Assembly (NCBI GenBank): GCA_036019775.1
Contig: JAYXXD010000002.1
Span: 1 to 60,641 of the forward strand
Direction: 5' to 3'
Length of the DNA stretch: 60,641 nucleotides
Source: Thermoplasmatota archaeon
GTDB taxonomy: Archaea; Thermoplasmatota; Poseidoniia; Poseidoniales; Poseidoniaceae
The notes under the pieces were generated by a model. It was not told the DNA's origin, made no database searches, and saw only the letters and a program-made list of their open reading frames with translations. Numbering within the stretch: position 1 is the first letter of the stretch; every line of letters begins with the position of its first letter. Of the stretch, positions 17,958 through 49,294 are shown piece after piece. A program made the translations under genes and the position numbers.

Positions 17958-17997
17958 GTGTCTGCTTGGAGACGGTCCTTTGTGAAGGTTGCGCGGA

Positions 17998-32543: not shown

Positions 32544-32593
32544 CTAATGGCCAAAGCGGTTGAATTATCAGCCCATTCTTGTAGGGCAATAAC

Positions 32594-33856: not shown

Positions 33857-33979
33857 TCTAAAAATTCGATGACGTCCCTCGATTTTCGCTATTCCCTCAT
33901 CGTCATTGTTAAAAGAGGGTCGAAAGTGGGCAAAACGCTCCAGCCTTGCTGCTGTCGAGCAATCCTCAGAGGGAACAAA

Positions 33980-36900
33980 ATGGAAAAGGTATCTAAGACC
34001 TCGCAACGACCCGTTTTTGGTTGGCTTATTGCCCCACTTGCGGTTCTCATTGCAGTACTAGCAAACTACGTCGATGGACTGATGTCGATCGATGTCGAAC
34101 TGAACAGCGATACGATGACGCCATTCATCGTCACTGGTGTAGCCGGTCTCTTGGCTGTTACACCTCGCATCCTCAATCAGCTAGGCAGCCTCCCAGAGTC
34201 GATTTCACAAACACAAATTTCCCTCGTTATGTTTATCCTCGCTCTTGTAGGTTCGGGCTTCGTAGAAGCTCAAACAGATGGTTTTGTTGCTTTCACGTTC
34301 TTCATCACCCTCTTCGGGGGTTATCTTCTCGATACACGGGAGCGATACGAATGGATGACAATGCTGGTTTTCACAACAGTTGGTATTCATGCCAGTTTTG
34401 ACATTGCAGCTGCTGCAGCAGTGGATGCGTATTTGCCAACAATGTACGAATTTTCCGAAGGGCAATCCTATGATGTTTCAACATTCCAAGAAACTGCTCT
34501 AGGTTTTGTTTTCTTCACTTGGTTCACAATCTTCGCAATTCTTGGCCTACTCGTCGGCGTGGTTGGACGTGGTGTCCTCAGCCCTGCAGGTGACAAGGGT
34601 TGGTTCTCGTTCAACAAAGTCGAGGATGGTTGGAACCGTCAAGCCCTCCCATTGCAAATCGCTTTGTTCGTATGGGCTGGAGCGCATCTCGCAACCATTT
34701 GGCATTTCGATCAAGGTTCAATTGCGGACCGACTTCGACTCGGCGGCCTTGGTGGCGTTGAAGCCAGTGGCTTTGTTGGATATTACACAGCCCTCCTTAC
34801 TGGAATTATCGCTATCATCGTTTCTGGAATGGTTGCAGAACGCTGGTTTACTCGAGCGATGACGCTATCTTCTCTATGGGGTCTCTACCTCATTGGTTCT
34901 TGGTATGAAGAAGGATTCTGGACCAACGAGACCTTTGCCGAATCGTGGGCGCCATTGATCTGGCTCGCTATCACATTCTTCATCGGTGTTGCGATTTCGA
35001 TGATTGGGAACCACGACAAATATGGCGGTTGGTCAAACCGTGAAGAACATCGGCCAAGTGGTGCTCGACAGTTCTGGAACGCCCATTGGGCAAGCCTCCT
35101 AACGGTCGTAGCATTCATTGTCGGTTTCGTTATCCGTATTCAATGGTATGCAATCCCTTCGATGCATGCTTTGGGAACAGATGGCTTTGACATGACAGGT
35201 GGTTCTGACCCTTGGTACATGAAGCGTGTTGTTGACTACATTCTCGCTCAAAATGCGCACTTGGTCCTCGACGCAGATCGTGCCTATCCGCTCGGTGGAA
35301 TCAATCCACGTCCGCCATTGTTTACTTGGACCTTGGCAATTGGAGCTATGATTCTGGAGCCATTCCTTGGTGAAGATGCAGTTTGGTGGAGCATGCTTGC
35401 TCTTCCAGCTGTATACGGTGCTCTGACCATACTACCTGTAGCGGCAATTGCACGTGATCATTTCGGCAAGGCTGCTGGTGTTATCGCAGCTTGGTTGATC
35501 GCTTTCATGCCTGCTCACGTTACCCATTCAACGTGGGGTCTTGCTGACCACGATTCATTTGTTATGCTGTTCATTGGTCTTGGATTCATGTTTTACTTAC
35601 GGGCTGTGAAATACGCTGGCTCGGAACGTTTGGTTCGCACGACATCGATTCGCCCAATTGACATGCTTACCGCCATGGGTGCTGTAGCCCAGCAACGTAA
35701 GTATGCCATGGCGAACGCAGTTCTGGCCGGTGTTTCATTCGCAGCAGCAAGCCTTGGATGGAAGGGATTCGTCGTCGGACCGGCTATCCTGTTCCTCGCC
35801 TATGCTGCTCAGGTTGCACTCAACATGTTCCGACGCCGTGACTCAACGATTCTCAGCACGTTGTTCCTAACGATGTTGTTAACGAATCTCTTGATTGCAC
35901 TACCATTCTACGCTCATCCACAAATGAACCTCATGTTGGATGGAACCGGTCTTCAGCCGTTCCTTTTCATATTGCTGTTCACCATTGTCATCATGTACAT
36001 TACAACAGGATTCCGAGACAAGCCTTGGTTGCTCGTTCTCGGGACACTTGCTGTTGGTGCAACGGTTTTCTTGGCAACATTGTACGTCTTGAAACTCACA
36101 AACCTAAGCAATGCATGGGATGTCTTGTTTACTGGTAGTGGATATTTCACGAAAACTAAGATTTTCGGAACTGTTGCTGAAGCAAATGCTCCAGATCGAG
36201 GTTACATGTTCGCAAGTTTCGGGCCGATTGTGTTTGTTTTCGCACTCGTTGTTGGTTTGACTTCTTTGTGGAGAGCATTCAGTCAACGCAGTCAAATCTC
36301 GCTCATTTTTGCAGTTTGGATCTTTACAGCATCGTACATGTCTTGGACCGCTGCTCGTTTCCTCTTCAATGCAACACCTGTTGTTGCTGTGATGGGGGCT
36401 GCTGGAATCGTTGGATTCTGGAAGTGGGCAGATTGGGACGGTCTCGTACGAACATGGCGTCGGGCTGGAATACGAACTCCGTCGGAACGTATTGCAGGTG
36501 CACGTCGCGCTGTTTGGCGCACACCATCATTCTCCGCAGTTGTTCTCGTACTCATCATGCTTTCAGGACAACAACTCACTTACGGTCTCGATTCAGCGAT
36601 TCCGGGTAATTCCCCTGCTGAAGGAGATCTCGATGAATCGTTTTACTATACCATTCCGGACATCATGCGATGGGATGGACTTGGTGTCTCCGTACTCGAC
36701 AGTCGAGATTACGAGGCATTTGGTGGCAGAGCCTACATGGGTTCGTTTGGAAGTGGATTTAACGGTCAACATTGGAATGATGCACATCAATGGCTTGCTG
36801 AGCAAGACAGATATCATGAGGGCGTATCCGATGAATCTGGTTGCGATCAAGAGAACGGTATTTGGCTTTCAGACTTAGGTCTGTGTGAAATGAGATTCGG

Positions 36901-39900
36901 TGATAAACCAGCTTTCGTTTCATGGTGGGATTACGGATTCCAAGCACTGAATACAGGTGAACACCCTTCCGTTGCTGACAACTTCCAGAGTGGTATTCCT
37001 GCTTCAGGTAACATGTTGCTTGCACGCAGTCAAACTGATTTGGTCGCCATGTTTACACAACTCCTTATTGCTGGTGATCTCTCATACAATGCTGCAAAAA
37101 CTGGCGAATGGTCGTTTACTCCTCAATTTGAAGCAGCAATGAAGAATGGATTAAACAACCCTGAACAGTTTGCAGAACTTGAACTCATCATGGTCCGTGA
37201 AGGCATGGATTTCGATGAGATGAAGGAAGTTGTTATCGACCATTCCTTTGAGGTTTTCAAGAATAAGGGTGATACGTACATGAGCCGAGGTTATCCACTC
37301 GATACAAACGGTATTCCTGATGAATCACTCGGGCTCCATTATCGTGTTTGGGCGGATGGAGAATTGATTCCTTGTGACAACCCAAGCCTAGATATCTGTT
37401 CGAATGGAGATTATATCTCCGAACAAGCTGCAAACAGCACATTCCGAAACAATGCAGATGTCAGTGCATCTGAAGTATCTGAGGTTACGCATTACACCTT
37501 TGGTGAGTATTGGTACACAGCTGATTTGGTCGAAGAGTACGCCTCAGTATCAACCGAAATACATCGAGCAAATGCACACATCGCACTCGTTGTCCAACTC
37601 CTAACCAATGGTTTAACTGATGAAGAGGTGGTTGATTTGTATCATTCAGTCATCGAACTCGAAGACATCTACGAAGTTCAAGATTACAACGGAGCTCCTG
37701 GTCAGACTCTTGAGCGAGACCATGAAATCCGATATTTTGCCATCGATGACAAACTCTATCCAAGAGCGGGAAGATACAACTCTGAAGCAGGTTACAATGG
37801 AGGACGGCCACTCGGTATCTTCGGTGCACCAACGATTCTTTCAGGTCAAGATTTCAACACGTTTACGAACGAAGTCTACGAAACAAAGCGAGGCGATCAG
37901 CCTGTTCGCGAGATGGACCGAGAGGCTGTTGATGAGGCCATGTTGAAAGACGTTCTCGACCAACAATCCGGAGCAGATATCGAACCGCTTACCGTTCAAG
38001 ACATCCGTATCGATCATCTTCCTGAATTCTTCGATACTATGTTGGCTCGGTCCTATGTTGGTTATGGTGCATCAACGCTTGGCGCTGATTCTGGTTCAAC
38101 CAACCCACAACCTCGTCAACAATTGAGCGAAAGTGCAAGAGGGACATCGTTCCTTCAACAAGCCTACCCGTTACCAGGTGCTATGATGAATCACTTTGTC
38201 ATTGCAAATTGGTACGATCCTGAATCACCTGCAATTCTTGCAAATGCAAACGTCAAGGTCATGAAGTACTACTCAGGTGCTGAGATTTCAGGAACCGTCA
38301 TGACAGAAGATGACAAGATGGGGCTTCCAAATGCTCGAATCCTCATCGAGCGTGACGCATTCTCAGGTGAAGGAGCCGAAGATTTGGACGAAGATACGTA
38401 CTGGATTCCTATCGGTATGACCGATGCTGACGAGAATGGTGATTGGAGTTTCTTAGCACCTGCTGGTCGAATCCGAGTTTCTGCATTCGCAGGTGTCTTC
38501 GATGATACGCTAGCGATTCAAGAAATCCAAAATGGTGAATTTGCCCAAGGATTTGGTGACGTGTTAACCGATGTTAATGACAATCGTGAGGTCTACACAA
38601 TTACTGCTGTTCTGGGACAAGTTGCAAACATGACATGGCTGGGAGAAACGACACTCAACATCACGGGGGCACAAGCAGATCGTGATGTGAACGCACCAGC
38701 TCCAGAAACCATGGACATTGAGGTGCAAAGTTCTGGCGTTTCCGGTACTGTCTCTTGGTCTGGTTACGGAGATTTCGACGGCGAACCACTGATTGAAACA
38801 GAATTTATTTTGAGAAACATTTGGTCGATGACCAACAATTACACACTCACCACGACGAATGGTTCGTTTGAAACGGATGAGACTCGTATTCTGCAAGGAA
38901 CAGGTGAAGTAACATTCTCCGAGGAGGGTACATTCACAAGCGAAGGTGTTGCTCTTGCGTACGACTTTACAGGTAATTTCACTCGAGAAATTTCCGATGG
39001 CCGTGTGTTCTCAGGAAACGGAACTTGGAATGGTAAGGGTACCATCGAAGCTACTTGGATTGACCACGATAATGCAACTTTGGATTGTGGTGAGAACTCT
39101 ACTATGCCAGAAAATGCTACACTTTGTCTTATCAGTACTGGGACAGATTTCTCCACTTACCTTCTCGATGGTGAAGCAATAGCAAATGGCCGCTTGACTT
39201 CGGACGGAATCAGTACATTGATGAAGCAACTTGATGGTGAAACTTTTGAAGGCACAGGTGTCTTTGAAGGAGTAGGTACGCTTAATGGAACAGGTCTCTT
39301 TGTCGGTCCTGGAAGTTTCAGCGGCGATATCGTCGATCCAGGTTCATTCTATCAGACTGGCCTTGTACCGGGCGTCTATCACATGATTGCCCAAATGCCG
39401 AACGGTCGAGAAATTCTCTTACCCGATCCAGTTGAAGTAGGCATTGAGCCAACGTTCGACCTTGAAATGACCTTGCCAGCTTCTGTGTTTGAAGGAACAC
39501 TGAAGACTGTAACGGACGATCCAATAGCGAATCAAATCGTTGAATTTGTGGATATTGAACTGGGTGAAGACGAGATTGTAACGTTTACTTCCGATGATGT
39601 TGGTAATGTCACATACGGCCCGATCACCTCTGGTGATTATTTCGTACGAGTGGACATTGATGGTGACGGTTTCTACGAACTCAATCAAACAATCGAAGTC
39701 ATTGATGATCCTATGAATTTCACATTCGATGGCGCTGTACCTGACATGTACGATCTTACGATTACGCTTGATGGGCCTGAAGGCTTTGATGTCTCTGAAC
39801 GAAACATCACGTTTACAGATTCATTAGGTCTAGAATCATTTGACATCATTTCAGATGAAAGCGGTACCGTATTTGTTGAACTTCCATCTGGAGAATGGTC

Positions 39901-42900
39901 GATGAGCGACAGCAGCGATGACGATTACATCCTCGTAGAGGACATTCTTGTAGAAGATGCTGACATGGTCCTTGACTTCAGTTATGCGATCTCTGTTTGG
40001 GTCAATGGTACAATCCAAGCACCGAGTTTCGAAGGATACCCTCCTGAAGATTGGGCTATGCTTCCTGAGGATGATAGGCCGTATGCGAATGCAAGCAATG
40101 TTCAGATACGATTCCATGGAAACAATCTCGAGTTCGAAGCAGTAACTGACCTGTCTGGAACCTTCCAACAACGATTGCCTGCTGGAATGACCTTTAATCT
40201 GAATGCGATTAGCACAATTGGCTACGCAGCAGGTGCTTCCGTTACTGTTACCGAAGGAATGGGTGAACTTGACGTACTACGGCTTAATCAAACCAAAGAA
40301 GTGATTGGCTCGATTTTCCTCTTCGATAATGAGAGTAATTGGAACCAGAACATTCCCGGGTATCAACCGGTTGAAGTATATGCAACAAATGAAGACGGTA
40401 TAGTTTGGACAACTGAAACAGACGCTGATGGATCGTTTAACCTACCACTACTCTACGGTAACTGGTCAATTAGCGCACCTGCACCAGAATACAACGTATC
40501 ACCAGTCACTGATTACACTGTTGATGTTAATGACACTGACGGCATCAGACATGTGGAGTTGATCGCCAACCCAAGCAATTCAACAGTTACTTTGAATGTG
40601 TTTACAGACCTTGGTGATGGAGTCTTTGAAAACGGTACTGCCATTCGCCCAGGCATCCAACTTGTACCGATTACAAACGTTGGAGAACAAGTGAATGTTA
40701 CTTCGGATGATTATTCAGAAGACGGTATCGTTGAGGTTGTTCTCAGTCCTGGCGTGTACTCGATTTCAACAAGCTATGTTGACGCTAATGATGAGAATGC
40801 AACGGATGCTAGCCTTGAAATCAAAGGTCTTCTCGACCCAATCGAAATCGGTCTGTCTGGACCGGATGAAGCAGTCCTCGTTCCGATTGTTGATGAATGG
40901 AGAATGAATGGAACCATAACATGGTCAAACGGTTCAGCAATGAGCGAGAACTTCCTATTGTCCACTCCTGACGGTTCTGATTACGTTTCTGTATCTGTCG
41001 ATGAGAACGGTTCGTTTGCTACATACGTCCCAAGTGGAGACTACATCGTTGTTGTTGCACCTCTTGAGAATGAGGATGGAGTGACCGAATCGTTGCGAAT
41101 GCCGATTACTATTGATGCTGATTCGAATACACGAACTGAACTCTCGCTTGTTTTGGTTGAAGCTGTTGAAATTTCACTTACACTCAAGGAGAGTGGAACA
41201 GAGAACATACTTTCTGATAAGAGGGTAGTTCTCGTGAGCCATGATGGTTTTGGAAACATTACAATGAATCCAACGGACTCAGGAGGAAACTCTTCACAAT
41301 TGGTTATGCCGGGAACTTGGAGCTTGTACATGAATGAATCAGGTTCGCAGCGATTCTGGAACATTGATACGTACAGCGCTCCTGAGGAATACGTTTCGAA
41401 CAGTTCACTCGGAATTATCCATGCTGATCTTGAAGTCGAAATTGGTGGAAAGGTATACTGGGATACAGATGAAGATGAAGTTCCTGACATCAATGAGGGT
41501 GTTGAAGGAGCAAATGTAATCATCCAAGGTGGAGGCCTTGATACCAACGTTTCCACTGATCCTGCAGGTGTTTGGAGAATCTATGTTCCTATCTTGGAAA
41601 GTTACACTGTAAGTGTTTCAAAGGACGGATTTGGCGTTGTATCTTATGATGACAACAACACTGGCACCTATATCGTTGAGAATGAACCTGTTTCACAAGA
41701 CATCACGATGACTGCAGCGGAAGTTACTGTAACCGGTACCGTCACAGATGTCCTTGACGCTTCCCGACTCGATGGTGCTTCAATCACATTGTATGGAACC
41801 TCAGAAAACCAACAAGATTCGGTTGATGTCGTAGGCACACTTGACTCCGATACGCTATCATTTAGCGCCGTAGTTGAACCAGGTCAATGGGTTGTTGTTG
41901 TCTATGAAGCTGATGCTCCATTCAATGGTGGAGGCGTTGCAATCGGCCTTTTGGATGCTGAAGTGCAAGATGGTGGTTCTATCGAATTGGTCATGAGCAA
42001 AGGAGGATGGGTCGATGTTTCTACTGAATTTACATCATTCAATCTCCAAACTTTCAACGCAGGAACCGATAACGAATCCTCTCCTGTGAACGATATTGTC
42101 CAAGTTGAAGTCGACTTGGGAGATGGAAAGGCGTGGGAGATTCCTCTCGAATCAGACGGAACGCTTGAAGTTCTATTGCCTGCAGACTCGGTTACCTTCA
42201 ATTCGGATTTCTCTACGGTACAGCGTGATCTTGTCATGAATTATACCGCAGGAATTTCCATTGAAAATGGTGATGAAGGCCGGACAGCACTGATGCTTTC
42301 CTACAACCGAAGAACCAACAGCGATCTAACGCTCTCTGTTTTCGATGTCGAAGGGGCAACAGTTCTTGGTGATGAAAACCGTGACTTACGTGCAATAATC
42401 AACTCCGATGACACAGATAACTATACATCGATAGAATTTGAAGTCCGAGCACAATATGAAGGAACAGAGATTTCCGATCCGTTCGATGTTTCAGGAACTG
42501 TATCTGTATCTCCCGACCAAGCTGAATGGTCTGTTGAGTTCTACAATGGAACTGATTGGATCAGCAGTACTGAAGTTCAACTCGGAATAGGCGACGTAGC
42601 AGCAAATGCAACATTGGAAGCAACGATTCAAGCACGAATCCTACTTCCATCGGTTGAAGCAGCTTGGTGGCTTGAGAACGGTCATGATGTCAACATTCGT
42701 TTCTCTGCTGATAGTGGAGATATGACAGAAGTGTCGATCAATGTTGAAGTTCCACAAATCTATGCATTTAACGTAACAGACCTGACCTCTACAGTTGGAG
42801 TCTCTCCTGCTGGAAGCACGACTGCAACACTGACCATCAACAACAACGGGAATGGTGATGATTCCTTTACCTACGAGGTTGTGGATAACATTCCTGATGG

Positions 42901-43528
42901 ATGGACAGTCAGCCCAATGAATGGTGTCACCACAATTGCAAAGGAAAACTTGCGTGACCTAGCCTTCACAATCACTTCCCCTGCAGACTTCAACGAAGGG
43001 GAAATTAAGGTAAAGGTACGAATTACAAGTGAAGACGGTACCACACAAGTCGAAGAAGAGATAACTGTGGAATCGGCACGAATTGCGTTGAATTGGAATC
43101 AAGACCTATCAAAGTCGAGAAGCAATAACTTCGCTGACATTGATCCGAACACCCTTGTAATCGTTATCGAGAATAACGGTCTTCGAGACGCTCAACAAGT
43201 TACAGTTTTCGCCAAGACAGAAGGTCTATCCGAGGTGAATATGACGCTCAGTGTACCTGCTGAAGGGTCGACTGACTTTGAATTCATATTGCCAAAGGCC
43301 AGTCAAGGAATTACACGTTATGACGTACGTGCTGTTGTTCTAGGCGATGATTTGAATTATTCCACAACTACGGTTGGTGATGACTTCAGCATCGAATACT
43401 TAGTTCAAGGTTCTGAAGATTCATCAAACCCAATTGTGATTATCACAATCATTGCGTTGATTTTCATTATCCTATACTTTGGATTCAAGGCGTCTTCACG
43501 TGCTCGTAGTTCAGGTAGTCGATTCTGA
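33980..43528 (+). CDS. aglB: Giant archaeal oligosaccharyltransferase (AglB/STT3) fused to an extra N-terminal multi-TM module, a ~2,000-aa beta-sandwich-repeat extracellular region and a C-terminal TM anchor
   Basis: 3182 aa from the ATG at 33980 (the track ORF starts at 33869). STT3/AglB motifs appear in canonical order: EL1 GGSDPWYMKR (35198-), GLADHD (35537-35554), TIxE-like TVAE (36170-36181), WWDYG (36923-36937). About 8-9 additional TM helices precede the core. Repeated CarboxypepD_reg-like and CARDB-like modules follow it. C-terminal TM NPIVIITIIALIFIILYFGF (43427-43486). Confidence 0.85.
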   Translation: MEKVSKTSQRPVFGWLIAPLAVLIAVLANYVDGLMSIDVELNSDTMTPFIVTGVAGLLAVTPRILNQLGSLPESISQTQISLVMFILALVGSGFVEAQTDGFVAFTFFITLFGGYLLDTRERYEWMTMLVFTTVGIHASFDIAAAAAVDAYLPTMYEFSEGQSYDVSTFQETALGFVFFTWFTIFAILGLLVGVVGRGVLSPAGDKGWFSFNKVEDGWNRQALPLQIALFVWAGAHLATIWHFDQGSIADRLRLGGLGGVEASGFVGYYTALLTGIIAIIVSGMVAERWFTRAMTLSSLWGLYLIGSWYEEGFWTNETFAESWAPLIWLAITFFIGVAISMIGNHDKYGGWSNREEHRPSGARQFWNAHWASLLTVVAFIVGFVIRIQWYAIPSMHALGTDGFDMTGGSDPWYMKRVVDYILAQNAHLVLDADRAYPLGGINPRPPLFTWTLAIGAMILEPFLGEDAVWWSMLALPAVYGALTILPVAAIARDHFGKAAGVIAAWLIAFMPAHVTHSTWGLADHDSFVMLFIGLGFMFYLRAVKYAGSERLVRTTSIRPIDMLTAMGAVAQQRKYAMANAVLAGVSFAAASLGWKGFVVGPAILFLAYAAQVALNMFRRRDSTILSTLFLTMLLTNLLIALPFYAHPQMNLMLDGTGLQPFLFILLFTIVIMYITTGFRDKPWLLVLGTLAVGATVFLATLYVLKLTNLSNAWDVLFTGSGYFTKTKIFGTVAEANAPDRGYMFASFGPIVFVFALVVGLTSLWRAFSQRSQISLIFAVWIFTASYMSWTAARFLFNATPVVAVMGAAGIVGFWKWADWDGLVRTWRRAGIRTPSERIAGARRAVWRTPSFSAVVLVLIMLSGQQLTYGLDSAIPGNSPAEGDLDESFYYTIPDIMRWDGLGVSVLDSRDYEAFGGRAYMGSFGSGFNGQHWNDAHQWLAEQDRYHEGVSDESGCDQENGIWLSDLGLCEMRFGDKPAFVSWWDYGFQALNTGEHPSVADNFQSGIPASGNMLLARSQTDLVAMFTQLLIAGDLSYNAAKTGEWSFTPQFEAAMKNGLNNPEQFAELELIMVREGMDFDEMKEVVIDHSFEVFKNKGDTYMSRGYPLDTNGIPDESLGLHYRVWADGELIPCDNPSLDICSNGDYISEQAANSTFRNNADVSASEVSEVTHYTFGEYWYTADLVEEYASVSTEIHRANAHIALVVQLLTNGLTDEEVVDLYHSVIELEDIYEVQDYNGAPGQTLERDHEIRYFAIDDKLYPRAGRYNSEAGYNGGRPLGIFGAPTILSGQDFNTFTNEVYETKRGDQPVREMDREAVDEAMLKDVLDQQSGADIEPLTVQDIRIDHLPEFFDTMLARSYVGYGASTLGADSGSTNPQPRQQLSESARGTSFLQQAYPLPGAMMNHFVIANWYDPESPAILANANVKVMKYYSGAEISGTVMTEDDKMGLPNARILIERDAFSGEGAEDLDEDTYWIPIGMTDADENGDWSFLAPAGRIRVSAFAGVFDDTLAIQEIQNGEFAQGFGDVLTDVNDNREVYTITAVLGQVANMTWLGETTLNITGAQADRDVNAPAPETMDIEVQSSGVSGTVSWSGYGDFDGEPLIETEFILRNIWSMTNNYTLTTTNGSFETDETRILQGTGEVTFSEEGTFTSEGVALAYDFTGNFTREISDGRVFSGNGTWNGKGTIEATWIDHDNATLDCGENSTMPENATLCLISTGTDFSTYLLDGEAIANGRLTSDGISTLMKQLDGETFEGTGVFEGVGTLNGTGLFVGPGSFSGDIVDPGSFYQTGLVPGVYHMIAQMPNGREILLPDPVEVGIEPTFDLEMTLPASVFEGTLKTVTDDPIANQIVEFVDIELGEDEIVTFTSDDVGNVTYGPITSGDYFVRVDIDGDGFYELNQTIEVIDDPMNFTFDGAVPDMYDLTITLDGPEGFDVSERNITFTDSLGLESFDIISDESGTVFVELPSGEWSMSDSSDDDYILVEDILVEDADMVLDFSYAISVWVNGTIQAPSFEGYPPEDWAMLPEDDRPYANASNVQIRFHGNNLEFEAVTDLSGTFQQRLPAGMTFNLNAISTIGYAAGASVTVTEGMGELDVLRLNQTKEVIGSIFLFDNESNWNQNIPGYQPVEVYATNEDGIVWTTETDADGSFNLPLLYGNWSISAPAPEYNVSPVTDYTVDVNDTDGIRHVELIANPSNSTVTLNVFTDLGDGVFENGTAIRPGIQLVPITNVGEQVNVTSDDYSEDGIVEVVLSPGVYSISTSYVDANDENATDASLEIKGLLDPIEIGLSGPDEAVLVPIVDEWRMNGTITWSNGSAMSENFLLSTPDGSDYVSVSVDENGSFATYVPSGDYIVVVAPLENEDGVTESLRMPITIDADSNTRTELSLVLVEAVEISLTLKESGTENILSDKRVVLVSHDGFGNITMNPTDSGGNSSQLVMPGTWSLYMNESGSQRFWNIDTYSAPEEYVSNSSLGIIHADLEVEIGGKVYWDTDEDEVPDINEGVEGANVIIQGGGLDTNVSTDPAGVWRIYVPILESYTVSVSKDGFGVVSYDDNNTGTYIVENEPVSQDITMTAAEVTVTGTVTDVLDASRLDGASITLYGTSENQQDSVDVVGTLDSDTLSFSAVVEPGQWVVVVYEADAPFNGGGVAIGLLDAEVQDGGSIELVMSKGGWVDVSTEFTSFNLQTFNAGTDNESSPVNDIVQVEVDLGDGKAWEIPLESDGTLEVLLPADSVTFNSDFSTVQRDLVMNYTAGISIENGDEGRTALMLSYNRRTNSDLTLSVFDVEGATVLGDENRDLRAIINSDDTDNYTSIEFEVRAQYEGTEISDPFDVSGTVSVSPDQAEWSVEFYNGTDWISSTEVQLGIGDVAANATLEATIQARILLPSVEAAWWLENGHDVNIRFSADSGDMTEVSINVEVPQIYAFNVTDLTSTVGVSPAGSTTATLTINNNGNGDDSFTYEVVDNIPDGWTVSPMNGVTTIAKENLRDLAFTITSPADFNEGEIKVKVRITSEDGTTQVEEEITVESARIALNWNQDLSKSRSNNFADIDPNTLVIVIENNGLRDAQQVTVFAKTEGLSEVNMTLSVPAEGSTDFEFILPKASQGITRYDVRAVVLGDDLNYSTTTVGDDFSIEYLVQGSEDSSNPIVIITIIALIFIILYFGFKASSRARSSGSRF

Positions 43529-43584
43529 TTTGTCAAGAGACAAGAGTTCATACACTGGACCTACCCATTTGCAATGGGGAGAGC

Positions 43585-44790
43585 ATGGAAGAACTGCGTG
43601 GAGTTGAGTTGCTCCCAGAACCGGGAGAACCAAAAATTCTCTCCGCTGTAGATCCTTCAACATCAGAACATGAAGGACAATGGAGAGCTGAAGTGACCGG
43701 ATGGGCGCCAGTGGTGCCCGATACGATACCATATCGTTCGAGAAGATTGTTCTCGCTTACATCTGGATTTATTTTAGCGGTTTTTCTCGGTGCCATCGTG
43801 TTGTTATGGCAATCCAACCTCTTGCTGTTGGAGTTACCACCAGCTACGTCTGAATGGGCATTTGAAGATACAGAAATTCGAACTTTGCAGGATGAAGGCC
43901 TGACTGGAGATGGTGTGAAAGTTTGCATGGTTGATACCGGCGTTTCCAAAAGTCACGCTTCTCTTGATGGTGCAGATATCACATTAAAGGATTTTTTATG
44001 CAATGCTGCCGAACCAACTGACTATGGTTCAATTGCACATGGGACGCTCATGGCAGGTATTCTTCTTTCAACTGACTTGCAGAGAGGTGTTGCTCCGAAT
44101 GTGACTCTTGGCATGGCTGCTGCATTGAAAGCCGATGGTCAGAACAACACTGGCTCGGAAGCACGAGTTGCAGATGCAATCAGGTGGTGCATTTTTGATT
44201 TCGAAGCCGATATTATTTCTCTGTCATTGGGCGGTCAGCAAGATCAATCAACATCCAGAGAAGGTCCTGCTGCCTCTGCCACTCGTCAGGCAATCGATGC
44301 TGGAATCTATGTTGTTGTTGCTGCTGGAAACGATGGAGGTTCGGGAGATGATGGTTATGTTAGTGCTCCAGGCAACGTCAACTTGGCGATCACAGTTGGT
44401 GCATCCGACCGTGTTGGAAATACGTGGTACAAATCATCACAAGGTGAACTCATAGATTCAGATGGCAACATACGAGAGTATCCTCACCAGAAGCCAGAGT
44501 TAACTGCGCCCGGTGTCAATATTCTTTCAACGGGCATGAATGATCAATGGTACACATCCAGTGGGACCTCAGATGCCACGGTCTTTGTTACGGGAGCTTT
44601 GTCGCTCATTCTTGAGGCATATCCTGAACTAAAGCCGAGGGAAGATTCCACTACAACTTGCATTGAACTCGTAAAACGTGCACTCGCAGATTCAATCAGT
44701 TCCGATTTGAGTCATGATTCTCGTTCAGGCTATGGACAATTGGATGCAAAGAAATGGAAAAACCAACTTGCTGGGAACACAGAATGCTGA
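43585..44790 (+). CDS. Membrane-anchored subtilisin-family (S8) serine protease
   Basis: Catalytic triad context VCMVDTGV (Asp), HGTLMAGIL (His), SGTSDATVFVTGA (Ser). N-terminal TM FILAVFLGAIVLLW. Confidence 0.85.
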   Translation: MEELRGVELLPEPGEPKILSAVDPSTSEHEGQWRAEVTGWAPVVPDTIPYRSRRLFSLTSGFILAVFLGAIVLLWQSNLLLLELPPATSEWAFEDTEIRTLQDEGLTGDGVKVCMVDTGVSKSHASLDGADITLKDFLCNAAEPTDYGSIAHGTLMAGILLSTDLQRGVAPNVTLGMAAALKADGQNNTGSEARVADAIRWCIFDFEADIISLSLGGQQDQSTSREGPAASATRQAIDAGIYVVVAAGNDGGSGDDGYVSAPGNVNLAITVGASDRVGNTWYKSSQGELIDSDGNIREYPHQKPELTAPGVNILSTGMNDQWYTSSGTSDATVFVTGALSLILEAYPELKPREDSTTTCIELVKRALADSISSDLSHDSRSGYGQLDAKKWKNQLAGNTEC

Positions 44791-44938
44791 TTTTGCGACG
44801 GATTATTTTGATACTCTTTCACATATTTGATATTTATAATGGTTAAATAATGATATTTTAAACAATAAATGATATTATTGGATGTGTCAATTGGGGCGCA
44901 GTATTATATTTGTTCAGTTTCTAGGTTCGGATAGAGGA
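44791..44938 (+). promoter_or_regulatory. AT-rich promoter region with TATA-like boxes and four phased TGATA(C/T)T repeats
   Basis: This is the only long AT-rich intergenic stretch in the window. TTTATAA at 44834-44840, TTTTAAA at 44857-44863. TGATACT at 44809, and TGATATT at 44829, 44852 and 44871 (spacing 20, 23, 19 bp). GAGGA at 44934-44938 precedes the start codons at 44939/44945. Confidence 0.45.
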
Positions 44939-47900
44939 ATGCACATGCAGATTGCAAATGTTGGAAAAAGCGTGGGATTGGTTGGATTACTCCTTACATC
45001 CCTAATGATCGGATTGGTTACTGTACCAACTGCGAGTGCAGTTAACGAAACATCCAGTGGTACAATCACGACAACCGAGACGTGGAGTGGTACTCACACT
45101 CTAACTGGTAACGTCACTGTTGCTGAAGGTGCGAAACTTGTCATTAATGCCGGTACGACCGTGAATATTCCTGCTGGTGCTTACATCGATGTCGAAGGAG
45201 CAATGTGTGCTGGTTCCGCTTCTTGTGGGGCTTCCCAAGGCAGTGCATCATCTCCAGTTCGATTTGAATGGGCAACACCAGCAGATTACGATGTTCTTGG
45301 CTGGTGCTTACAACAAAACAGTCAGTTCTACACAAACCCGGATGCAGGGTGCGGTTCCGGAGTTATCATTCGAAGTACTATCAACCAGGCATCGACAGGA
45401 TTGTCCTTTGTTTCGTTTAACAACGCTTACGGACACCCAGTATTAGTTCAAACTGGCCAATCCCAATCCATTCAGTATGCTACCCTGATTTTTGATGGAT
45501 CCACAACAAATGCAGATAATCTTGTATTTTCGAACATCAATACGTCTAACATTATCGCTCTTGATTTTGCAGCTCCAATCATTCGAGACTCAACATTTAC
45601 GCTCGGTGATGATGGACGAGGTTATGATGCCTCCGCAGTGCGCGCCTACGATGCAGGTGCAGGTATTTTGTCACCGTTGGTTCTCACGGGTTCGACATTC
45701 ACAGGCAATACTGAAGCTCAGTGTGGAACTTCAGGTGGAGGAAAGGCTGTAATCTATGCAGAATCATCGTACATTTCGATGGACCAACTTGATGTCAAGG
45801 AAAATGCGTATGGTGTTTTCCTCAGAGAATCATCAGGTTCTCTAGGCAACAGTACCTTCGATGTTCTTTGCAATGCAATCGACACCAACTCATTCAAATC
45901 CACAGGAAACTTCGCCCACACGCTTTACCTTGATAGCAATGATATCACCACTGAAGAGGGTGCGGGAATCACAGCATTTTCTGGAGCAATTGTTACTGCA
46001 ACGAACAATGTGATTTCAGGTGCATCGGCAGGTTCTGGATTTGGTATTCGAGACTCAACCGTTTCAGCGCATGGGAATACAGTCGGGCCGATTGAAGGGT
46101 TCAATGGTTTCTGGGTTTTCGGTCAATCAGAGGTTGAAATTGAAAACAACACCATCCAAGATACTGCAAAAGAACCCATCCAAATCGGCGAATACCACTA
46201 CAAGGATCCGAACAGCAACTATCCTCCACCTTCTGCAAATCGAGCATACATTGCCAACAACGTTATTTCAAACAATTCTGGTACATGCACCTCTCAATTC
46301 ATGTATAATGGAGATTTCACTTGCCCAGCAATCCATATCTTTTCATCTTCAGCAACAATCGTTGACAATACAGTCACCAACAACGCAGGTGATGGATTAC
46401 GAATCAAAGGATCCATTGTGAACGTCCAACGAAATACTGTTGAAGCGGGACAATTCGCTGTAAACATCAGTCACTTTGACACGATAACAGCTTCCAAGTA
46501 TGGATCGATTGGTTACTTTTCAGGAAACACTTGGACCAATGCTACGCAAGTGTACAACATCACTGAGTCACGGGTAACAGTGCAGTCGGAGTACATTCCT
46601 GATGCTGGTGGAGACTACATCTATCCAGTCATGCTTCAATGGCTTAGTGCAGAATGTCCAGATGTGACATCGGAATGTTTGTTGCTGCCAGATACAGCAG
46701 TTACCCCTCCAAGAGATATGCCTCTTGCGATTGAGTTGGTCAACAATTCAACTGTATTCTCGTTTGCAAATTTACAAAACTTCGATCCTTCAAAGATTCA
46801 TGTTCAGAACCAAAACACCGAGTGGGGGTCACAAGTCCGACAAGGTGAACTTGTTCGCTATCAGGTCAAAGCGAAGAACAGCAATGTTGCTGGCGCTACG
46901 GTGATCATTAAAGATGCAACAGGACTTCCATTGTATGAACTGACAACGGATAATTTTGGAATGACGCAACAAGTCTCACTCCCTTCCGATTTCTTGCTCG
47001 ATCGCAACTGGAATCATGCAGTGGGTGAAACTGGAGTTACTGTTCCGGGCACGAATCCAACCAACCCGACCATTTTGGATGAAGACACATGTTCTGATGG
47101 ATACGACAATGACGGTGATACGTACGTTGATGACGAAGATCCTGATTGTATTAATGGCCGAGAGCTTCCATTCTACATCGTTGAAGCTTACAAATTCGAT
47201 AAAGGCAAGAAAGATTTCGACTTCGTTCTCAGTGGTCCAATCGACGATGTCATCAATCTTGACAACTTGCGACCAAGTGTCACAGTTGAACAATACGATG
47301 GGGAATCTTTCGCCATCAATGCTGTCCTCACTGGGACTGCTTGGGATGGAGTATCGGGTCCATATCCTCTCGATGTAATCGCATACGATCGACAATTCGG
47401 TTTGATTGACCGTGTTGAGATTCAACCACCAGGCAGCACCGACTGGTACTATGCCGTTGATACCTCTGGAGCGAACGGCGAATTGACCAAGGAAAACCAT
47501 CCATTCAAGACATGGTCGTTTGATTGGGATCTATCGGCTCATCCTGATGGAGAAAGTGATGTTACATTCAGAATCCGCTCATACGATGGTCTGGATTACT
47601 CTCCAATAGAAGTGCGTAAGTTCAAACTCAATTTGGTACCTCCAACACTGTACCTCAACGAACCATTGGACGGTTCCACTCACTCAAATGGAAAGATTCT
47701 CTTCACAGGCACAGCATCCGATCCTTATTCAGGAACATGGGGGTCGGATATTCAGGATATTTGGTTTGATGTTACTGGGCCAAATGGCTACAATTCTCAC
47801 TTTGCTATCAACGGATCAATTGCTTGGGCATATGAATGGAATTTTGAGGATTTAGAAACTGGTCAATACACGTTCGAAGTTTGGGCGAGTGACAGTGACT

Positions 47901-49279
47901 TCTGTGATGATGTACAAGGGAATTGTGTTATTTCCACTCGAACTGTTAATGTGCTTAACGATAACGCCATCCCAATTGTTGATTTAATTGAACCGGATGG
48001 AACAAAAGCAGTTCGTGCCGATGCCAATACACAATTGGTGGGCTTTGCCAGCGATGGTGCTGATGGTACGATCACACGTGTAGAAATTGAGATTCTTGAT
48101 TTGGCAAGTGGACTTATCCTCAATGACGGGCCTGCTCCTGTAACGACGTTTACGAAGTCAGGTCCTGGTTATTCCTGGTCAGCAAATTGGGATACAAGCA
48201 AACTGAATCATGAAGGACAGTACGAAATTCGAGTTAAGGCATACGATGGAGAGGATTATTCCGTCGCAGATATCGTCAGAATTACCATTTCAAAACCGAC
48301 GGATGCAAACAACATACCTCCACAATTTAATGCCACAAATTGGCCGAATACGCTGACAATTTTCTGTGTTGTTGGTTCATCTTCAGAAAACCAGTGCGGT
48401 GGAGGAGTGGAACTTGATTTGACTCAGTATTTCAACGACCCGGATTCAGATGTCCTGATTATCGATTTCGTTGACGATGCAACCACTGAAGATGATGATA
48501 ATCATCCGTTCCTCATCGATATCGATATTAATGGTGTTGCAAAGTACGATCCTGCGAGCAAACAGAACAATCAAAACATCTCAAGTTGGACCATTGAAAA
48601 TGTTCGATTTATTGTCCGAGACGCTTTTGATGAATCAAAGATGTCCAGTAGCGTTACGTTCTTCGTACAAGCTGTTGAATTCAATGTTGTTCGCGATGAT
48701 CCAAATGATCCGGTGACTGCGACAAACCCTGCCGAGTTTAGTGGAACAGGTTTGCCCGGTGCAAAAATTGAAGCCCGTTCCGTCGCTTCGAAATCGCTCA
48801 TTAAGTCCGTGATTGTTGGAGATACTGGTGCTTGGTCGATGAATCTCAGTCTTCAAGATATGAATGATGCGTCAAATAACTTGATGTTCCTGATGGATGA
48901 ACAAACTTTCGGAGGAAGTTCGGAGCCTTCGTCATTTAGAGTTGAAGTTGGTGAAGTTGATGAAGGCTCAAACCTTCTGCTCATCATAGGTATCGTTGTT
49001 GCTGCTTTGATCTTGCTTGCCGGAGTTGCTTACTTCTTCGTTGAATTTGAGGAAATTGAAGATGAAGGATTTGATGCGACAACAGAGGTTGTTCAAGAAG
49101 AAGACCCTTATGCATGGGGCAAGAAAACGACCCCAGCTATCCCTCAGCAAACCGTTGCTCCAACGCCGGCTGTCCAGCCTGAAGTCGTACAACAATCCGC
49201 ACAACACCCTGGCTGGATTTGGGATCAAGAAAACAATCAATGGGTCCCTGATCCAAATTATCAACCGCCCAGCCAATAA
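44939..49279 (+). CDS. Giant tail-anchored surface protein: right-handed parallel beta-helix repeats, Cys-bracketed Asp-rich metal-binding motif, Ig-like domains, C-terminal TM and cytoplasmic tail
   Basis: About 1446 aa. The start is ATG 44939, or 44945 which has better spacing to GAGGA. Signal peptide VGLVGLLLTSLMIGLVTVPTASA. PbH1-like repeats (NNVISGASAGSGFGIRDS, NNTIQD, NNVISNNSG, DNTVTNNAGDGLRI). CSDGYDNDGDTYVDDEDPDC at 47090-47149. TM LLLIIGIVVAALILLAGVAYFFV. Confidence 0.75.
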   Translation: MHMQIANVGKSVGLVGLLLTSLMIGLVTVPTASAVNETSSGTITTTETWSGTHTLTGNVTVAEGAKLVINAGTTVNIPAGAYIDVEGAMCAGSASCGASQGSASSPVRFEWATPADYDVLGWCLQQNSQFYTNPDAGCGSGVIIRSTINQASTGLSFVSFNNAYGHPVLVQTGQSQSIQYATLIFDGSTTNADNLVFSNINTSNIIALDFAAPIIRDSTFTLGDDGRGYDASAVRAYDAGAGILSPLVLTGSTFTGNTEAQCGTSGGGKAVIYAESSYISMDQLDVKENAYGVFLRESSGSLGNSTFDVLCNAIDTNSFKSTGNFAHTLYLDSNDITTEEGAGITAFSGAIVTATNNVISGASAGSGFGIRDSTVSAHGNTVGPIEGFNGFWVFGQSEVEIENNTIQDTAKEPIQIGEYHYKDPNSNYPPPSANRAYIANNVISNNSGTCTSQFMYNGDFTCPAIHIFSSSATIVDNTVTNNAGDGLRIKGSIVNVQRNTVEAGQFAVNISHFDTITASKYGSIGYFSGNTWTNATQVYNITESRVTVQSEYIPDAGGDYIYPVMLQWLSAECPDVTSECLLLPDTAVTPPRDMPLAIELVNNSTVFSFANLQNFDPSKIHVQNQNTEWGSQVRQGELVRYQVKAKNSNVAGATVIIKDATGLPLYELTTDNFGMTQQVSLPSDFLLDRNWNHAVGETGVTVPGTNPTNPTILDEDTCSDGYDNDGDTYVDDEDPDCINGRELPFYIVEAYKFDKGKKDFDFVLSGPIDDVINLDNLRPSVTVEQYDGESFAINAVLTGTAWDGVSGPYPLDVIAYDRQFGLIDRVEIQPPGSTDWYYAVDTSGANGELTKENHPFKTWSFDWDLSAHPDGESDVTFRIRSYDGLDYSPIEVRKFKLNLVPPTLYLNEPLDGSTHSNGKILFTGTASDPYSGTWGSDIQDIWFDVTGPNGYNSHFAINGSIAWAYEWNFEDLETGQYTFEVWASDSDFCDDVQGNCVISTRTVNVLNDNAIPIVDLIEPDGTKAVRADANTQLVGFASDGADGTITRVEIEILDLASGLILNDGPAPVTTFTKSGPGYSWSANWDTSKLNHEGQYEIRVKAYDGEDYSVADIVRITISKPTDANNIPPQFNATNWPNTLTIFCVVGSSSENQCGGGVELDLTQYFNDPDSDVLIIDFVDDATTEDDDNHPFLIDIDINGVAKYDPASKQNNQNISSWTIENVRFIVRDAFDESKMSSSVTFFVQAVEFNVVRDDPNDPVTATNPAEFSGTGLPGAKIEARSVASKSLIKSVIVGDTGAWSMNLSLQDMNDASNNLMFLMDEQTFGGSSEPSSFRVEVGEVDEGSNLLLIIGIVVAALILLAGVAYFFVEFEEIEDEGFDATTEVVQEEDPYAWGKKTTPAIPQQTVAPTPAVQPEVVQQSAQHPGWIWDQENNQWVPDPNYQPPSQ

Positions 49280-49294
49280 TTCGGTTGTGATTGA

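What the first reader, a model, noticed from the sequence alone, without database searches (positions are those of the whole stretch)
33980..43528. A ~3,180-residue AglB: oligosaccharyltransferase embedded in a giant doubly anchored surface protein
All hallmark STT3/AglB motifs occur in the right order: EL1 Asp in GGSDPWYMKR, GLADHD, TVAE, and WWDYG at 36923-36937. The catalytic subunit itself is therefore not in doubt. Three features are exceptional. (1) About 360 residues with 8-9 extra TM helices precede the canonical first TM (33980 to about 35070). (2) After the soluble catalytic domain come roughly 2,000 residues of repeated CarboxypepD_reg-like and CARDB-like beta-sandwich modules. (3) A second TM anchor sits at the extreme C-terminus (43427-43486). 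Characterised AglB proteins are, to my knowledge, roughly 600-1,000 aa. The long stalk resembles S-layer or adhesin architecture. This suggests an OST that is physically part of the cell envelope, or one that presents its own heavily glycosylated stalk.
Basis: partly seen in the sequence, partly recalled or inferred. Interest (0 to 1): 0.75.

Follow-up and report, generated by a model that had tools for sequence, protein, structure and literature searches.

The report
Giant membrane-anchored archaeal glycosylation enzyme
This marine archaeon's enzyme that attaches sugars to proteins is about four times the usual length, because it is fused to a long, sugar-site-rich surface stalk anchored in the membrane at its far end, and this design turns out to be standard across a whole archaeal phylum.

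Summary
Window 33980-43528 (+) is one uninterrupted 3,182-codon gene. Its product has about 10 extra N-terminal helices, a complete STT3/AglB core with every checked catalytic motif, about 2,280 external residues and a C-terminal membrane helix.

It is not an assembly artefact. More than 120 full-length, nearly gapless homologues (98-48% identity) come from independent assemblies of Poseidoniales (Marine Group II).

STT3 proteins of 2,000-2,800 aa with the same stalk and C-terminal anchor, but without the N-terminal module, occur throughout Thermoplasmatota. These include the named species Aciduliprofundum sp. MAR08-339 (2,081 aa) and Methanomassiliicoccus luminyensis (2,173 aa).

New points:
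- The N-terminal module is specific to Poseidoniales and matches no known family.
- Residues 1200-1800 are as conserved as the catalytic core.
- Confident beta-sandwich modules start only near residue 1834.
- The stalk holds 42 N-glycosylation sites where 18 are expected. Seventeen of them, plus one in the membrane core, are invariant in 26 homologues.

Best reading: an active oligosaccharyltransferase whose own ectodomain is a heavily N-glycosylated envelope component. This is a new variant of a known kind. None of my eight literature searches found a paper on such long AglB proteins. Whether the genome holds a second aglB was not tested.

The parts
33980..43528 (+). Complete giant aglB/STT3 gene (3,182 codons plus stop)
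   Evidence: Uninterrupted ORF. The start matches the invariant Met1 of the homologues. More than 120 full-length homologues of 3,150-3,230 aa.
33980..35065 (+). N-terminal extension, aa 1-362: about 10 predicted membrane helices, found only in Poseidoniales, orphan fold
   Evidence: Hydropathy and the Lys+Arg pattern of the loops. Model helices with pLDDT about 56-87 over aa 10-280. Absent from the 2,000-2,800-aa relatives. No Pfam or PDB sequence match. Not a duplicate of the STT3 membrane core.
35066..36595 (+). STT3 membrane core, aa 363-872 (the canonical 13-helix GT-C module)
   Evidence: Pfam STT3 over aa 400-803. Aligns to 3WAJ residues 6-442. Foldseek top hits are A. fulgidus AglB and yeast and human STT3.
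35198..35218 (+). First external loop motif GGSDPWY (catalytic D410)
   Evidence: Aligns to GGNDPWY of 3WAJ. Invariant in 26 sequences.
35546..35554 (+). Second acidic motif D523-H524-D525
   Evidence: Aligns to NDHH of 3WAJ. Invariant.
36170..36181 (+). External loop 5 motif TVAE (E734), the TIXE motif
   Evidence: Aligns to TIAE of 3WAJ. T and E are invariant.
36923..36937 (+). WWDYG motif, aa 982-986
   Evidence: invariant. In this subclade it is preceded by a 25-aa insertion containing two Cys.
36596..38524 (+). External catalytic domain plus its extension, aa 873-1515. Shared with the 2,000-2,800-aa Thermoplasmatota STT3s. Sequon-poor (1 site).
   Evidence: AglB_core-like hit at aa 931-1018, below cutoff. 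Collinear BLAST matches to class-2 proteins over aa 366-1067 and about 1200-1515. Sequon count.
38525..39478 (+). Highly conserved Gly/Thr-rich, sequon-dense region, aa 1516-1833, fold unknown
   Evidence: 53-65% identity per 100-residue block in homologues that are about 49% identical overall. Many invariant sequons. pLDDT 20-60. No match to class-2 proteins except a weak alignment with P0394 that runs into its first part, to aa 1643.
39479..43399 (+). Stalk of divergent beta-sandwich modules, aa 1834-3140 (CarboxypepD_reg / CnaB / prealbumin-like; Ig- or CARDB-like near the end)
   Evidence: Pfam CarboxypepD_reg at aa 2037-2093 and 2505-2577. Model pLDDT 70-89 for aa 1834-2349. Foldseek hits are tandem CnaB or pilin modules, NOMO and SlaB. 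choice_anch_T at aa 2912-3024, below cutoff. No sequence repeats.
43430..43486 (+). C-terminal membrane helix, aa 3151-3169
   Evidence: Kyte-Doolittle peak of 2.84. The same feature is present in nearly all class-1 and class-2 giants.
43487..43525 (+). Short basic cytoplasmic tail KASSRARSSGSRF. All class-1 homologues end in RF or PF.
43585..44790 (+). Subtilase (Peptidase_S8) gene 57 nt downstream on the same strand, conserved neighbour
   Evidence: Pfam E = 2.5e-38. Same position next to homologues of 49-71% identity. Not found next to class-2 genes.
44882..49279 (+). 1,465-aa beta-helix / Big_7 protein, conserved neighbour, not sequon-enriched

Best explanation
The gene encodes a catalytically active AglB, the archaeal STT3-type oligosaccharyltransferase, of a Poseidoniales (Marine Group II) archaeon.

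Proposed layout. The N-terminus is in the cytoplasm. About 10 lineage-specific helices come first, then the 13-helix STT3 core, so the rest of the protein is outside the cell. The external part holds the WWDYG catalytic domain, a conserved extension, a sequon-dense conserved region and a stalk of roughly a dozen divergent beta-sandwich modules. A final helix returns the chain to the membrane and leaves a short basic tail inside. The ectodomain is therefore tethered at both ends.

Proposed mechanism (inferred). The core transfers dolichol-linked glycans to Asn-X-Ser/Thr sites on exported proteins, as other AglBs do. Its own stalk is a major substrate, either of the same molecule or of neighbouring copies. 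The result would be a long, heavily N-glycosylated arch on the cell surface that contributes to the envelope or glycocalyx. This would matter in a phylum in which, according to the papers read, most Thermoplasmatales isolates lack a classical S-layer.

The N-terminal module has conserved residues mainly on the cytoplasmic side (E124, R197-G198, E287-R288-W289). It probably docks a cytoplasmic or membrane partner or handles the lipid-linked glycan. Its role is unknown.

Shown: the sequence architecture, motif conservation, collinearity, taxonomic spread and sequon enrichment. Inferred: enzyme activity, topology, self-glycosylation and the envelope role.
For: - The ORF is intact.
- STT3 family hit above cutoff. 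Residue-level alignment to A. fulgidus AglB-L across the membrane domain and WWDYG. Foldseek top hits are AglB and STT3.
- GGSDPWY, DHD, T[VI]xE, WWDYG and DNFQ are invariant in 26 sequences spanning Poseidoniaceae and Thalassarchaeaceae, down to about 38% identity.
- More than 120 full-length collinear homologues with almost no gaps.
- The stalk and C-terminal anchor are conserved in at least 528 loci of Thermoplasmatota species genomes.
- Sequons: 42 observed against 18.0 +/- 3.8 expected in aa 1501-3140, with 0 of 2,000 shuffles reaching 42. Seventeen of these sites are invariant in 26 homologues. The catalytic ectodomain carries only 1.
- The neighbouring large surface proteins are not enriched, with z = -0.5 and 1.1.
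- Beta-sandwich stalk resembling adhesin, pilin and SlaB stalk modules.
- The loop charge pattern fits an N-in, 10-helix extension.
- An oligosaccharyltransferase gene is transcribed in situ in a Thalassarchaeaceae genome (PMC9723583).
Against: - There is no biochemical, proteomic or imaging evidence for activity, glycosylation or surface location.
- Both structure models are poor overall (mean pLDDT 56.8 and 54.7), so packing of the N-terminal module on the core and the fold of aa 1150-1833 are unknown.
- The Ser/Thr-pocket motif (DK or MI) was not assigned.
- Scores against TIGR04154 (161.7 vs 450) and Pfam AglB_core-like (21-23 vs 27) are below the curated cutoffs.
- The strong conservation of aa 1200-1800 suggests a specific function beyond a passive stalk, which this explanation does not name.
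- Cuniculiplasma isolates are reported to carry AglB genes yet show no S-layer by electron microscopy (PMC5155288). I found a 1,589-aa STT3 only in a Cuniculiplasma sp. genome assembled from a metagenome. An ordered lattice role is therefore unlikely, at least there.
Confidence: 0.6

Rival explanations
1. Polyprotein. The gene is translated as one chain but is cut, perhaps by the conserved adjacent S8 subtilase, into a normal-sized AglB and a separate surface glycoprotein anchored by the C-terminal helix. The fusion would then serve co-expression and co-localisation rather than a permanent tether.
For: An S8 subtilase gene lies 57 nt downstream on the same strand. It keeps this position at 49-71% identity. 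The stalk has its own anchor and resembles stand-alone stalk or anchor proteins such as SlaB. Several class-2 relatives carry PGF-CTERM-like ends typical of independently processed surface proteins.
Against: I found no conserved linker or cleavage motif. The region between core and stalk (aa 1200-1800) is among the most conserved parts rather than a loose linker. The S8 gene is absent beside class-2 genes that share the fusion. The fusion is stable across a whole phylum, with no split versions seen among the top hits.
Confidence: 0.12
2. Scaffold or ruler. The ectodomain is not mainly a substrate or wall component. It is a functional extension of the enzyme that holds the catalytic site at a set distance, binds nascent substrates or the Sec translocon, or recognises particular acceptor proteins. 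The sequons would only protect it from proteases.
For: Residues 1200-1800 are as conserved as the membrane core. Homology to class-2 proteins continues through about aa 1515. This suggests an enlarged catalytic-domain periphery, like the extra peripheral units of long AglBs (my own knowledge of the Kohda-group structures).
Against: About 1,300 residues of divergent beta-sandwich modules plus a second anchor are more than a substrate-binding accessory would need. Sequon positions are conserved and enriched only in this protein.
Confidence: 0.15
3. Inactive paralogue. A conventional aglB elsewhere in the genome does the catalysis, and this giant is a structural surface protein that merely retains an STT3-derived anchor.
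For: The rest of the genome could not be searched. Mid-sized (1,125-1,190 aa) unanchored STT3 proteins exist in some Thermoplasmatota.
Against: All catalytic motifs are invariant across Poseidoniales down to about 38% identity, and the membrane core is the most conserved part of the protein. None of the mid-sized proteins was attributed to Poseidoniales.
Confidence: 0.05
4. Assembly or gene-calling artefact that joins a normal aglB to a neighbouring surface-protein gene.
For: None found.
Against: There is no stop or frameshift. Hundreds of independent assemblies give the same 3,150-3,230-aa product, collinear and nearly gapless. Contigs of up to 619 kb carry it.
Confidence: 0.01

Closest known systems
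Archaeoglobus fulgidus AglB-L (PDB 3WAJ, 3WAK, 5GMY, 7E9S) and other characterised archaeal AglBs
   Same: Same family. The membrane core aligns residue by residue, with the first-loop Asp, the D-x-D/H motif, the TIXE motif and WWDYG all in register. These are the best structural matches.
   Different: The characterised enzymes are far shorter: the solved A. fulgidus chain is 875 residues, and others are about 600-1,050 aa to my knowledge. They have no N-terminal 10-helix module, no stalk of more than 2,000 residues and no C-terminal anchor.
Unnamed giant STT3 proteins of other Thermoplasmatota, for example Aciduliprofundum sp. MAR08-339 (2,081 aa) and Methanomassiliicoccus luminyensis (2,173 aa), annotated 'carboxypeptidase regulatory-like domain-containing protein' or 'STT3 domain-containing protein'
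   Same: STT3 core, extended external domain, CarboxypepD_reg-type stalk and a C-terminal helix with a basic tail. Collinear homology to the window protein over aa 366-1067 and 1200-1515, and in one case 1957-2978.
   Different: About 1,000 residues shorter. They lack the N-terminal module. Apart from one weak alignment reaching aa 1643, they do not match the conserved aa 1516-1833 region. Some end in a PGF-CTERM-like signal instead of a plain anchor. No adjacent S8 subtilase.
Membrane-anchored S-layer stalk proteins (Sulfolobus SlaB) and C-terminally anchored archaeal S-layer glycoproteins
   Same: A string of beta-sandwich modules carrying many N-glycosylation sites and ending in a C-terminal membrane anchor. 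SlaB is among the Foldseek matches (8qox_B).
   Different: Those proteins are not enzymes and are anchored at one end only. No lattice-forming partner or domain was identified here.
Gram-positive adhesins and pilins built of CnaB / prealbumin-like modules (B. anthracis TIE, SpaC, Cna B repeats) and eukaryotic NOMO
   Same: Best fold matches for aa 1834-2349. Same Pfam clan as CarboxypepD_reg.
   Different: Fold-level resemblance only (7-15% identity). Different domain of life and different anchoring chemistry.

Membership tests
STT3 / AglB oligosaccharyltransferase (GT66, GT-C fold) | Family profile match (Pfam PF02516 STT3) above the curated cutoff | tested here: met
   44.6 bits against a cutoff of 24.5, E = 1.9e-11, aa 400-803.
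STT3 / AglB oligosaccharyltransferase (GT66, GT-C fold) | Acidic residue in the first external loop (the Asp of GGNDPWY in A. fulgidus AglB-L) | tested here: met
   D410 in GGSDPWY aligns to GGNDPWY of 3WAJ. Invariant in 26 sequences.
STT3 / AglB oligosaccharyltransferase (GT66, GT-C fold) | Second D-x-D / D-x-H metal-binding motif | tested here: met
   D523-H524-D525 aligns to D-H-H of 3WAJ. Invariant.
STT3 / AglB oligosaccharyltransferase (GT66, GT-C fold) | TIXE motif Glu in external loop 5 | tested here: met
   TVAE at aa 731-734 aligns to TIAE of 3WAJ. T731 and E734 are invariant.
STT3 / AglB oligosaccharyltransferase (GT66, GT-C fold) | WWDYG motif in the external domain | tested here: met
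   aa 982-986, invariant.
STT3 / AglB oligosaccharyltransferase (GT66, GT-C fold) | DK or MI motif forming the Ser/Thr pocket | tested here: inconclusive
   No simple DxxK or MxxI pattern could be assigned after WWDYG. The external-domain model is low confidence there. The AglB_core-like profile scores 21-23 bits against a cutoff of 27.
STT3 / AglB oligosaccharyltransferase (GT66, GT-C fold) | 13-helix GT-C membrane fold | tested here: inconclusive
   Hydropathy and the alignment to 3WAJ residues 6-442 fit. Foldseek ranks AglB and STT3 first (E = 3e-6), but the model is poor (pLDDT 56.8, TM-score 0.2-0.4).
STT3 / AglB oligosaccharyltransferase (GT66, GT-C fold) | Transfer of a lipid-linked glycan to Asn in N-X-S/T | not testable with these tools
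   Needs an enzyme assay or genetics.
NCBIfam TIGR04154 (archaeosortase A system-associated STT3 subfamily) | Score at or above the curated cutoff | tested here: not met
   161.7 bits against a cutoff of 450. It is related to this subfamily but is not a member of it.
PGF-CTERM / archaeosortase A substrates | Pro-Gly-Phe motif immediately before the C-terminal helix | tested here: not met
   The window protein ends ...NPIVIITIIALIFIILYFGFKASSRARSSGSRF, with no PGF. Nine class-2 relatives do show PGF/PSF-type ends.
Archaeal S-layer protein | Forms the paracrystalline surface lattice | not testable with these tools
   Only fold-level similarity to stalk modules. No cell-envelope images of Poseidoniales were examined.
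Pfam CarboxypepD_reg (PF13620) domain-containing proteins | Domain match above cutoff | tested here: met
   75.8 bits against a cutoff of 32.3, with stretches at aa 2037-2093 and 2505-2577.

The most novel reading that the evidence does not exclude
The giant AglB is itself the principal envelope glycoprotein of Poseidoniales and, more broadly, of Thermoplasmatota. In this reading the enzyme glycosylates its own doubly anchored stalk, so one polypeptide builds the glycocalyx that replaces or underlies an S-layer. The Poseidoniales-specific 10-helix N-terminal module would feed the lipid-linked glycan to the active site, for example as the missing flippase or as a docking site for the assembly enzymes.
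Probability: 0.15. Interest if true: 0.8.

Novelty: new variant of a known kind. Interest (0 to 1): 0.55.

Why it matters
Poseidoniales are among the most abundant archaea in the surface ocean, and to my knowledge none has been cultivated. I found nothing on what covers their cells. If their only oligosaccharyltransferase is also a 340-kDa, doubly anchored, densely glycosylated surface protein, it is a strong candidate for a major envelope component. It would then be a likely target for viruses and grazers.

The wider point is that a whole phylum, including named and culturable Methanomassiliicoccus and Aciduliprofundum, carries AglB proteins two to four times the textbook size. This offers a tractable way to ask why an enzyme would be fused to its own substrate-like stalk. 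It also raises the question of how N-glycosylation is coupled to envelope assembly in archaea that mostly lack classical S-layers. Finally, the orphan 10-helix N-terminal module is a candidate for an unknown step in handling the lipid-linked glycan.

Tried and rejected
- Internal repeats. BLASTP of the ectodomain against itself gave no hits at E <= 1. The modules are therefore old and divergent, not recent repeats.
- N-terminal module as a duplicate of the STT3 membrane core. hhalign gave probability 0.1%, so I rejected this.
- N-terminal module against known families. Pfam on the single sequence and on 10 members, and a profile search of all PDB sequences, gave nothing credible.
- Structure of aa 1-1150, to see whether the extra helices pack on the core. 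Mean pLDDT was 56.8 and pTM 0.40, too poor to judge packing.
- Structure of aa 1150-2349. Only aa 1834-2349 were modelled with confidence. The conserved aa 1150-1833 region stayed unmodelled.
- Second aglB in Poseidoniales. The single genome-collection scan went on the class-2 survey. Looking up 10 shorter STT3 hits (nine of 1,125-1,190 aa and one of 846 aa) found only 'Thermoplasmatota archaeon' names and none from Poseidoniales. This is inconclusive.
- Literature. Eight searches combined AglB, STT3, oligosaccharyltransferase, N-glycosylation or 'giant protein' with Marine Group II, Poseidoniales, Thermoplasmat*, named genera or 'carboxypeptidase regulatory-like'. None found a description of giant AglBs. 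Subscription papers, such as the AglB surveys from the Eichler laboratory, were not searchable.
- S8 subtilase as a universal partner. It is not found beside class-2 genes.
Full report
**1. What is in the sequence**

Window 33869-43528 (+) is one open reading frame without stops. The ATG at 33980 corresponds to the invariant first Met of all homologues, giving a 3,182-residue product. Base composition matches the neighbouring genes.

Pfam finds STT3 (aa 400-803, 44.6 bits, cutoff 24.5) and CarboxypepD_reg (75.8 bits). NCBIfam finds the archaeal STT3 subfamily TIGR04154 at 161.7 bits, below its cutoff of 450.

A sequence search of the PDB aligns aa 364-809 to residues 6-442 of Archaeoglobus fulgidus AglB-L. 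The following pairs are in register:
- GGSDPWY with GGNDPWY
- GLADHD with GFNDHH
- TVAE with TIAE
- SWWDYG with SWWDYG

**2. Topology**

Hydropathy finds nine strong hydrophobic segments before the canonical first STT3 helix. The structure model shows ten helices in aa 10-344. The Lys+Arg content of the loops alternates, apart from one loop, in the way expected for a cytoplasmic N-terminus and ten membrane passes. This keeps the STT3 core in its normal orientation.

After the last core helix (about aa 862) some 2,280 residues are predicted to be outside the cell. A very hydrophobic helix at aa 3151-3169 and a basic 13-residue tail end the protein. The total is about 24 membrane helices.

**3. 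Not an artefact, and who owns it**

The protein database search returned more than 120 full-length proteins of 3,150-3,230 aa, from 98% down to 48% identity. They come from ENA, JGI, NCBI, TARA and Logan assemblies, on contigs of up to 619 kb. Where named, they are 'Candidatus Poseidoniaceae' or 'Poseidoniales archaeon'. An alignment of 27 of them is collinear with almost no gaps.

A profile-free search of 1.8 billion representative proteins extends this class to 38-39% identity. Cluster look-ups name Candidatus Thalassarchaeaceae among these. The 3,150-3,230-aa form with the N-terminal module therefore spans both families of the order Poseidoniales (Marine Group II).

**4. The wider family**

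The same search shows a second, much larger class. These are STT3 proteins of about 2,000-2,800 aa that match only aa 365-1035 of the query and start at their own residue 5-140, so they lack the N-terminal module. Nearly all keep WWDYG and end in one membrane helix plus a basic tail. Nine carry a PGF/PSF motif before that helix, like archaeosortase substrates.

Named members are Thermoplasmata or Thermoplasmatota archaea. A scan of one genome per prokaryotic species found at least 528 such loci. The best 80, most of them matching nearly the whole query, are in Thermoplasmata, Methanomassiliicoccales, the DHVE2 group, Ca. Lutacidiplasma, Halarchaeoplasma, Natronoplasma and Cuniculiplasma.

Named species have them too: Aciduliprofundum sp. 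MAR08-339 (2,081 aa) and Methanomassiliicoccus luminyensis (2,173 aa).

The window protein is collinear with these over aa 366-1067 and 1200-1515, and with one marine relative over aa 1957-2978. The fusion of STT3 to a long anchored stalk is therefore old and phylum-wide. The Poseidoniales version is the largest and adds the N-terminal module. It also adds the aa 1516-1833 region, into which only one weak class-2 alignment (to aa 1643) extends.

Some Thermoplasmatota also have mid-sized (1,125-1,190 aa) unanchored STT3 proteins.

**5. Conservation pattern**

Among homologues that are about 49% identical overall, identity to the window protein per 100-residue block is:
- Membrane core: 62-75%.
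- aa 1201-1800: 54-69%.
- N-terminal module: 32-56%.
- Distal stalk: 31-50%.

In Thalassarchaeaceae the N-terminal module falls to 15-22% while the core stays at 45-50%.

GGSDPWY, DHD, T[VI]xE, WWDYG and DNFQ are invariant in all 26 sequences checked. This argues for a working enzyme.

This subclade has a 25-residue insertion with two Cys just before WWDYG.

**6. The ectodomain**

There are no sequence-level repeats.

The model of aa 1150-2349 is confident only for aa 1834-2349 (pLDDT 70-89), which is all beta. Its best structural matches are tandem CnaB / prealbumin-like modules of Gram-positive adhesins and pilins, NOMO, and the Sulfolobus S-layer stalk protein SlaB.

Pfam places CarboxypepD_reg at aa 2037-2093 and 2505-2577. 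Weak Ig- or CARDB-like signals appear near aa 2912-3030.

Residues 1150-1833 could not be modelled.

**7. Glycosylation sites**

The protein has 46 N-X-S/T sequons, 42 of them in aa 1501-3140. Shuffling that segment gives 18.0 +/- 3.8 (z = 6.4), and none of 2,000 shuffles reached 42. The catalytic ectodomain (aa 863-1500) has one.

Eighteen sequon positions are invariant across 26 homologues, 17 of them in the stalk and one (N797) in the membrane core. Homologues carry 35-56 stalk sequons.

Other proteins in the same window are not enriched. The 1,465-aa beta-helix protein gives z = -0.5 and the 1,651-aa lamin-tail/PLD protein gives z = 1.1. The enrichment is therefore a property of this stalk, not of the organism's composition.

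**8. The N-terminal module**

It has no Pfam match, no PDB sequence match with a 10-sequence profile, and no similarity to the STT3 membrane core. Invariant residues such as E124, R197-G198 and E287/W289 lie at the predicted cytoplasmic ends of helices. The overall model was too poor (pTM 0.40) to say whether it packs on the core.

**9. Gene neighbourhood**

The order is CDP-archaeol synthase, purD, the giant gene, an S8 subtilase 57 nt downstream, a roughly 1,450-aa beta-helix/Big_7 protein and a STAND/TPR ATPase. The order from CDP-archaeol synthase through the beta-helix protein is seen next to homologues of 49% and 71% identity, each contig showing the genes it reaches. The STAND/TPR ATPase was confirmed only at the 49% locus. 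The subtilase is not found beside class-2 genes.

**10. Interpretation**

The best-supported reading is an active AglB whose own doubly tethered ectodomain is a heavily N-glycosylated surface structure. I consider the following less likely:
- A cleaved polyprotein.
- A stalk that is purely a functional accessory of the enzyme.
- An inactive paralogue.
- An assembly artefact, which is excluded.

**11. Known or new**

The sequences are in public databases under generic names: 'STT3 domain-containing', 'carboxypeptidase regulatory-like domain-containing' and 'glycosyltransferase family 39'. Eight full-text searches found no paper that describes giant AglBs.

Papers on Thermoplasmatales mention AglB only as present (PMC3750248, PMC5155288). 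One metatranscriptome study lists an oligosaccharyltransferase among genes with higher transcript abundance when a Thalassarchaeaceae genus was active (PMC9723583). Subscription literature could not be searched.

I rate this a new variant of a known kind. It is of moderate to high interest for archaeal cell-surface biology, but it is not a new kind of system.

Noticed in passing
window 31839-51808; loci L081, L082, L083, L084: The gene order CDP-archaeol synthase, purD, giant STT3, S8 subtilase, roughly 1,450-aa beta-helix/Big_7 protein is seen next to Poseidoniaceae homologues of only 49-71% identity, each contig showing the genes it reaches. A STAND/TPR ATPase follows in the window and at the 49% locus. 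The subtilase and the beta-helix protein may be functional partners of the giant enzyme.
   Followed up: partly
proteins P0149, P0154, P0156, P0161, P0162, P0168, P0201, P0216, P0220: Nine of the 2,000-2,700-aa Thermoplasmatota STT3 proteins end in a PGF/PSF motif plus helix plus basic tail. That is an archaeosortase A sorting signal on the oligosaccharyltransferase itself. It implies that in those lineages the far end of the enzyme is cut and lipid-anchored like an S-layer glycoprotein.
   Followed up: no
window 43517-43525 (last residues) and the class-1 homologues: Every Poseidoniales homologue inspected ends in Arg-Phe or Pro-Phe. Such a conserved C-terminal Phe on the short cytoplasmic tail suggests a recognition signal.
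   Followed up: no
window 36806-36880 (about aa 943-967): A 25-residue insertion with two conserved Cys lies immediately upstream of WWDYG. It is present only in this subclade and in P0076, and absent in most Poseidoniales homologues. It may form a disulphide-bonded loop next to the active site.
   Followed up: partly
window 17998-22953 (-): A 1,651-aa ORF with five lamin-tail domains (E = 4e-73) and two PLD-like domains. It is probably a large secreted or surface phospholipase- or nuclease-like protein. The listed ORF overlaps the 3' end of the Bax-inhibitor-like gene at 17217-18293, so the true start of that downstream gene is probably later than listed.
   Followed up: no
window aa 254-398 versus P0180 aa 114-257: A weak BLAST match (25% identity, E = 2e-5) links the last part of the N-terminal module to the helix 2-5 region of a class-2 STT3. 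The profile comparison of the module with the window's own core found nothing. This could be compositional, or a trace of a partial duplication.
   Followed up: partly
proteins P0204, P0214, P0215, P0217, P0231, P0243, P0250, P0264, P0270: A third size class of STT3 (1,125-1,190 aa) has no C-terminal anchor. They lie on contigs longer than the gene and where named are 'Thermoplasmatota archaeon'. So not all members of the phylum have the anchored giant form, or some have two kinds.
   Followed up: partly
locus L079 2995-7764: The Cuniculiplasma sp. STT3 ORF is only 1,589 aa, whereas its relatives at 77-80% identity are 2,099-2,106 aa. This may be a truncation or frameshift in that genome.
   Followed up: no
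window 49295-51808 (+): An 837-aa protein with an N-terminal helix-turn-helix, an AAA/STAND NTPase and TPR repeats. It is a MalT-like signal-transducing regulator, conserved downstream of the surface-protein genes at the 49%-identity locus.
   Followed up: no
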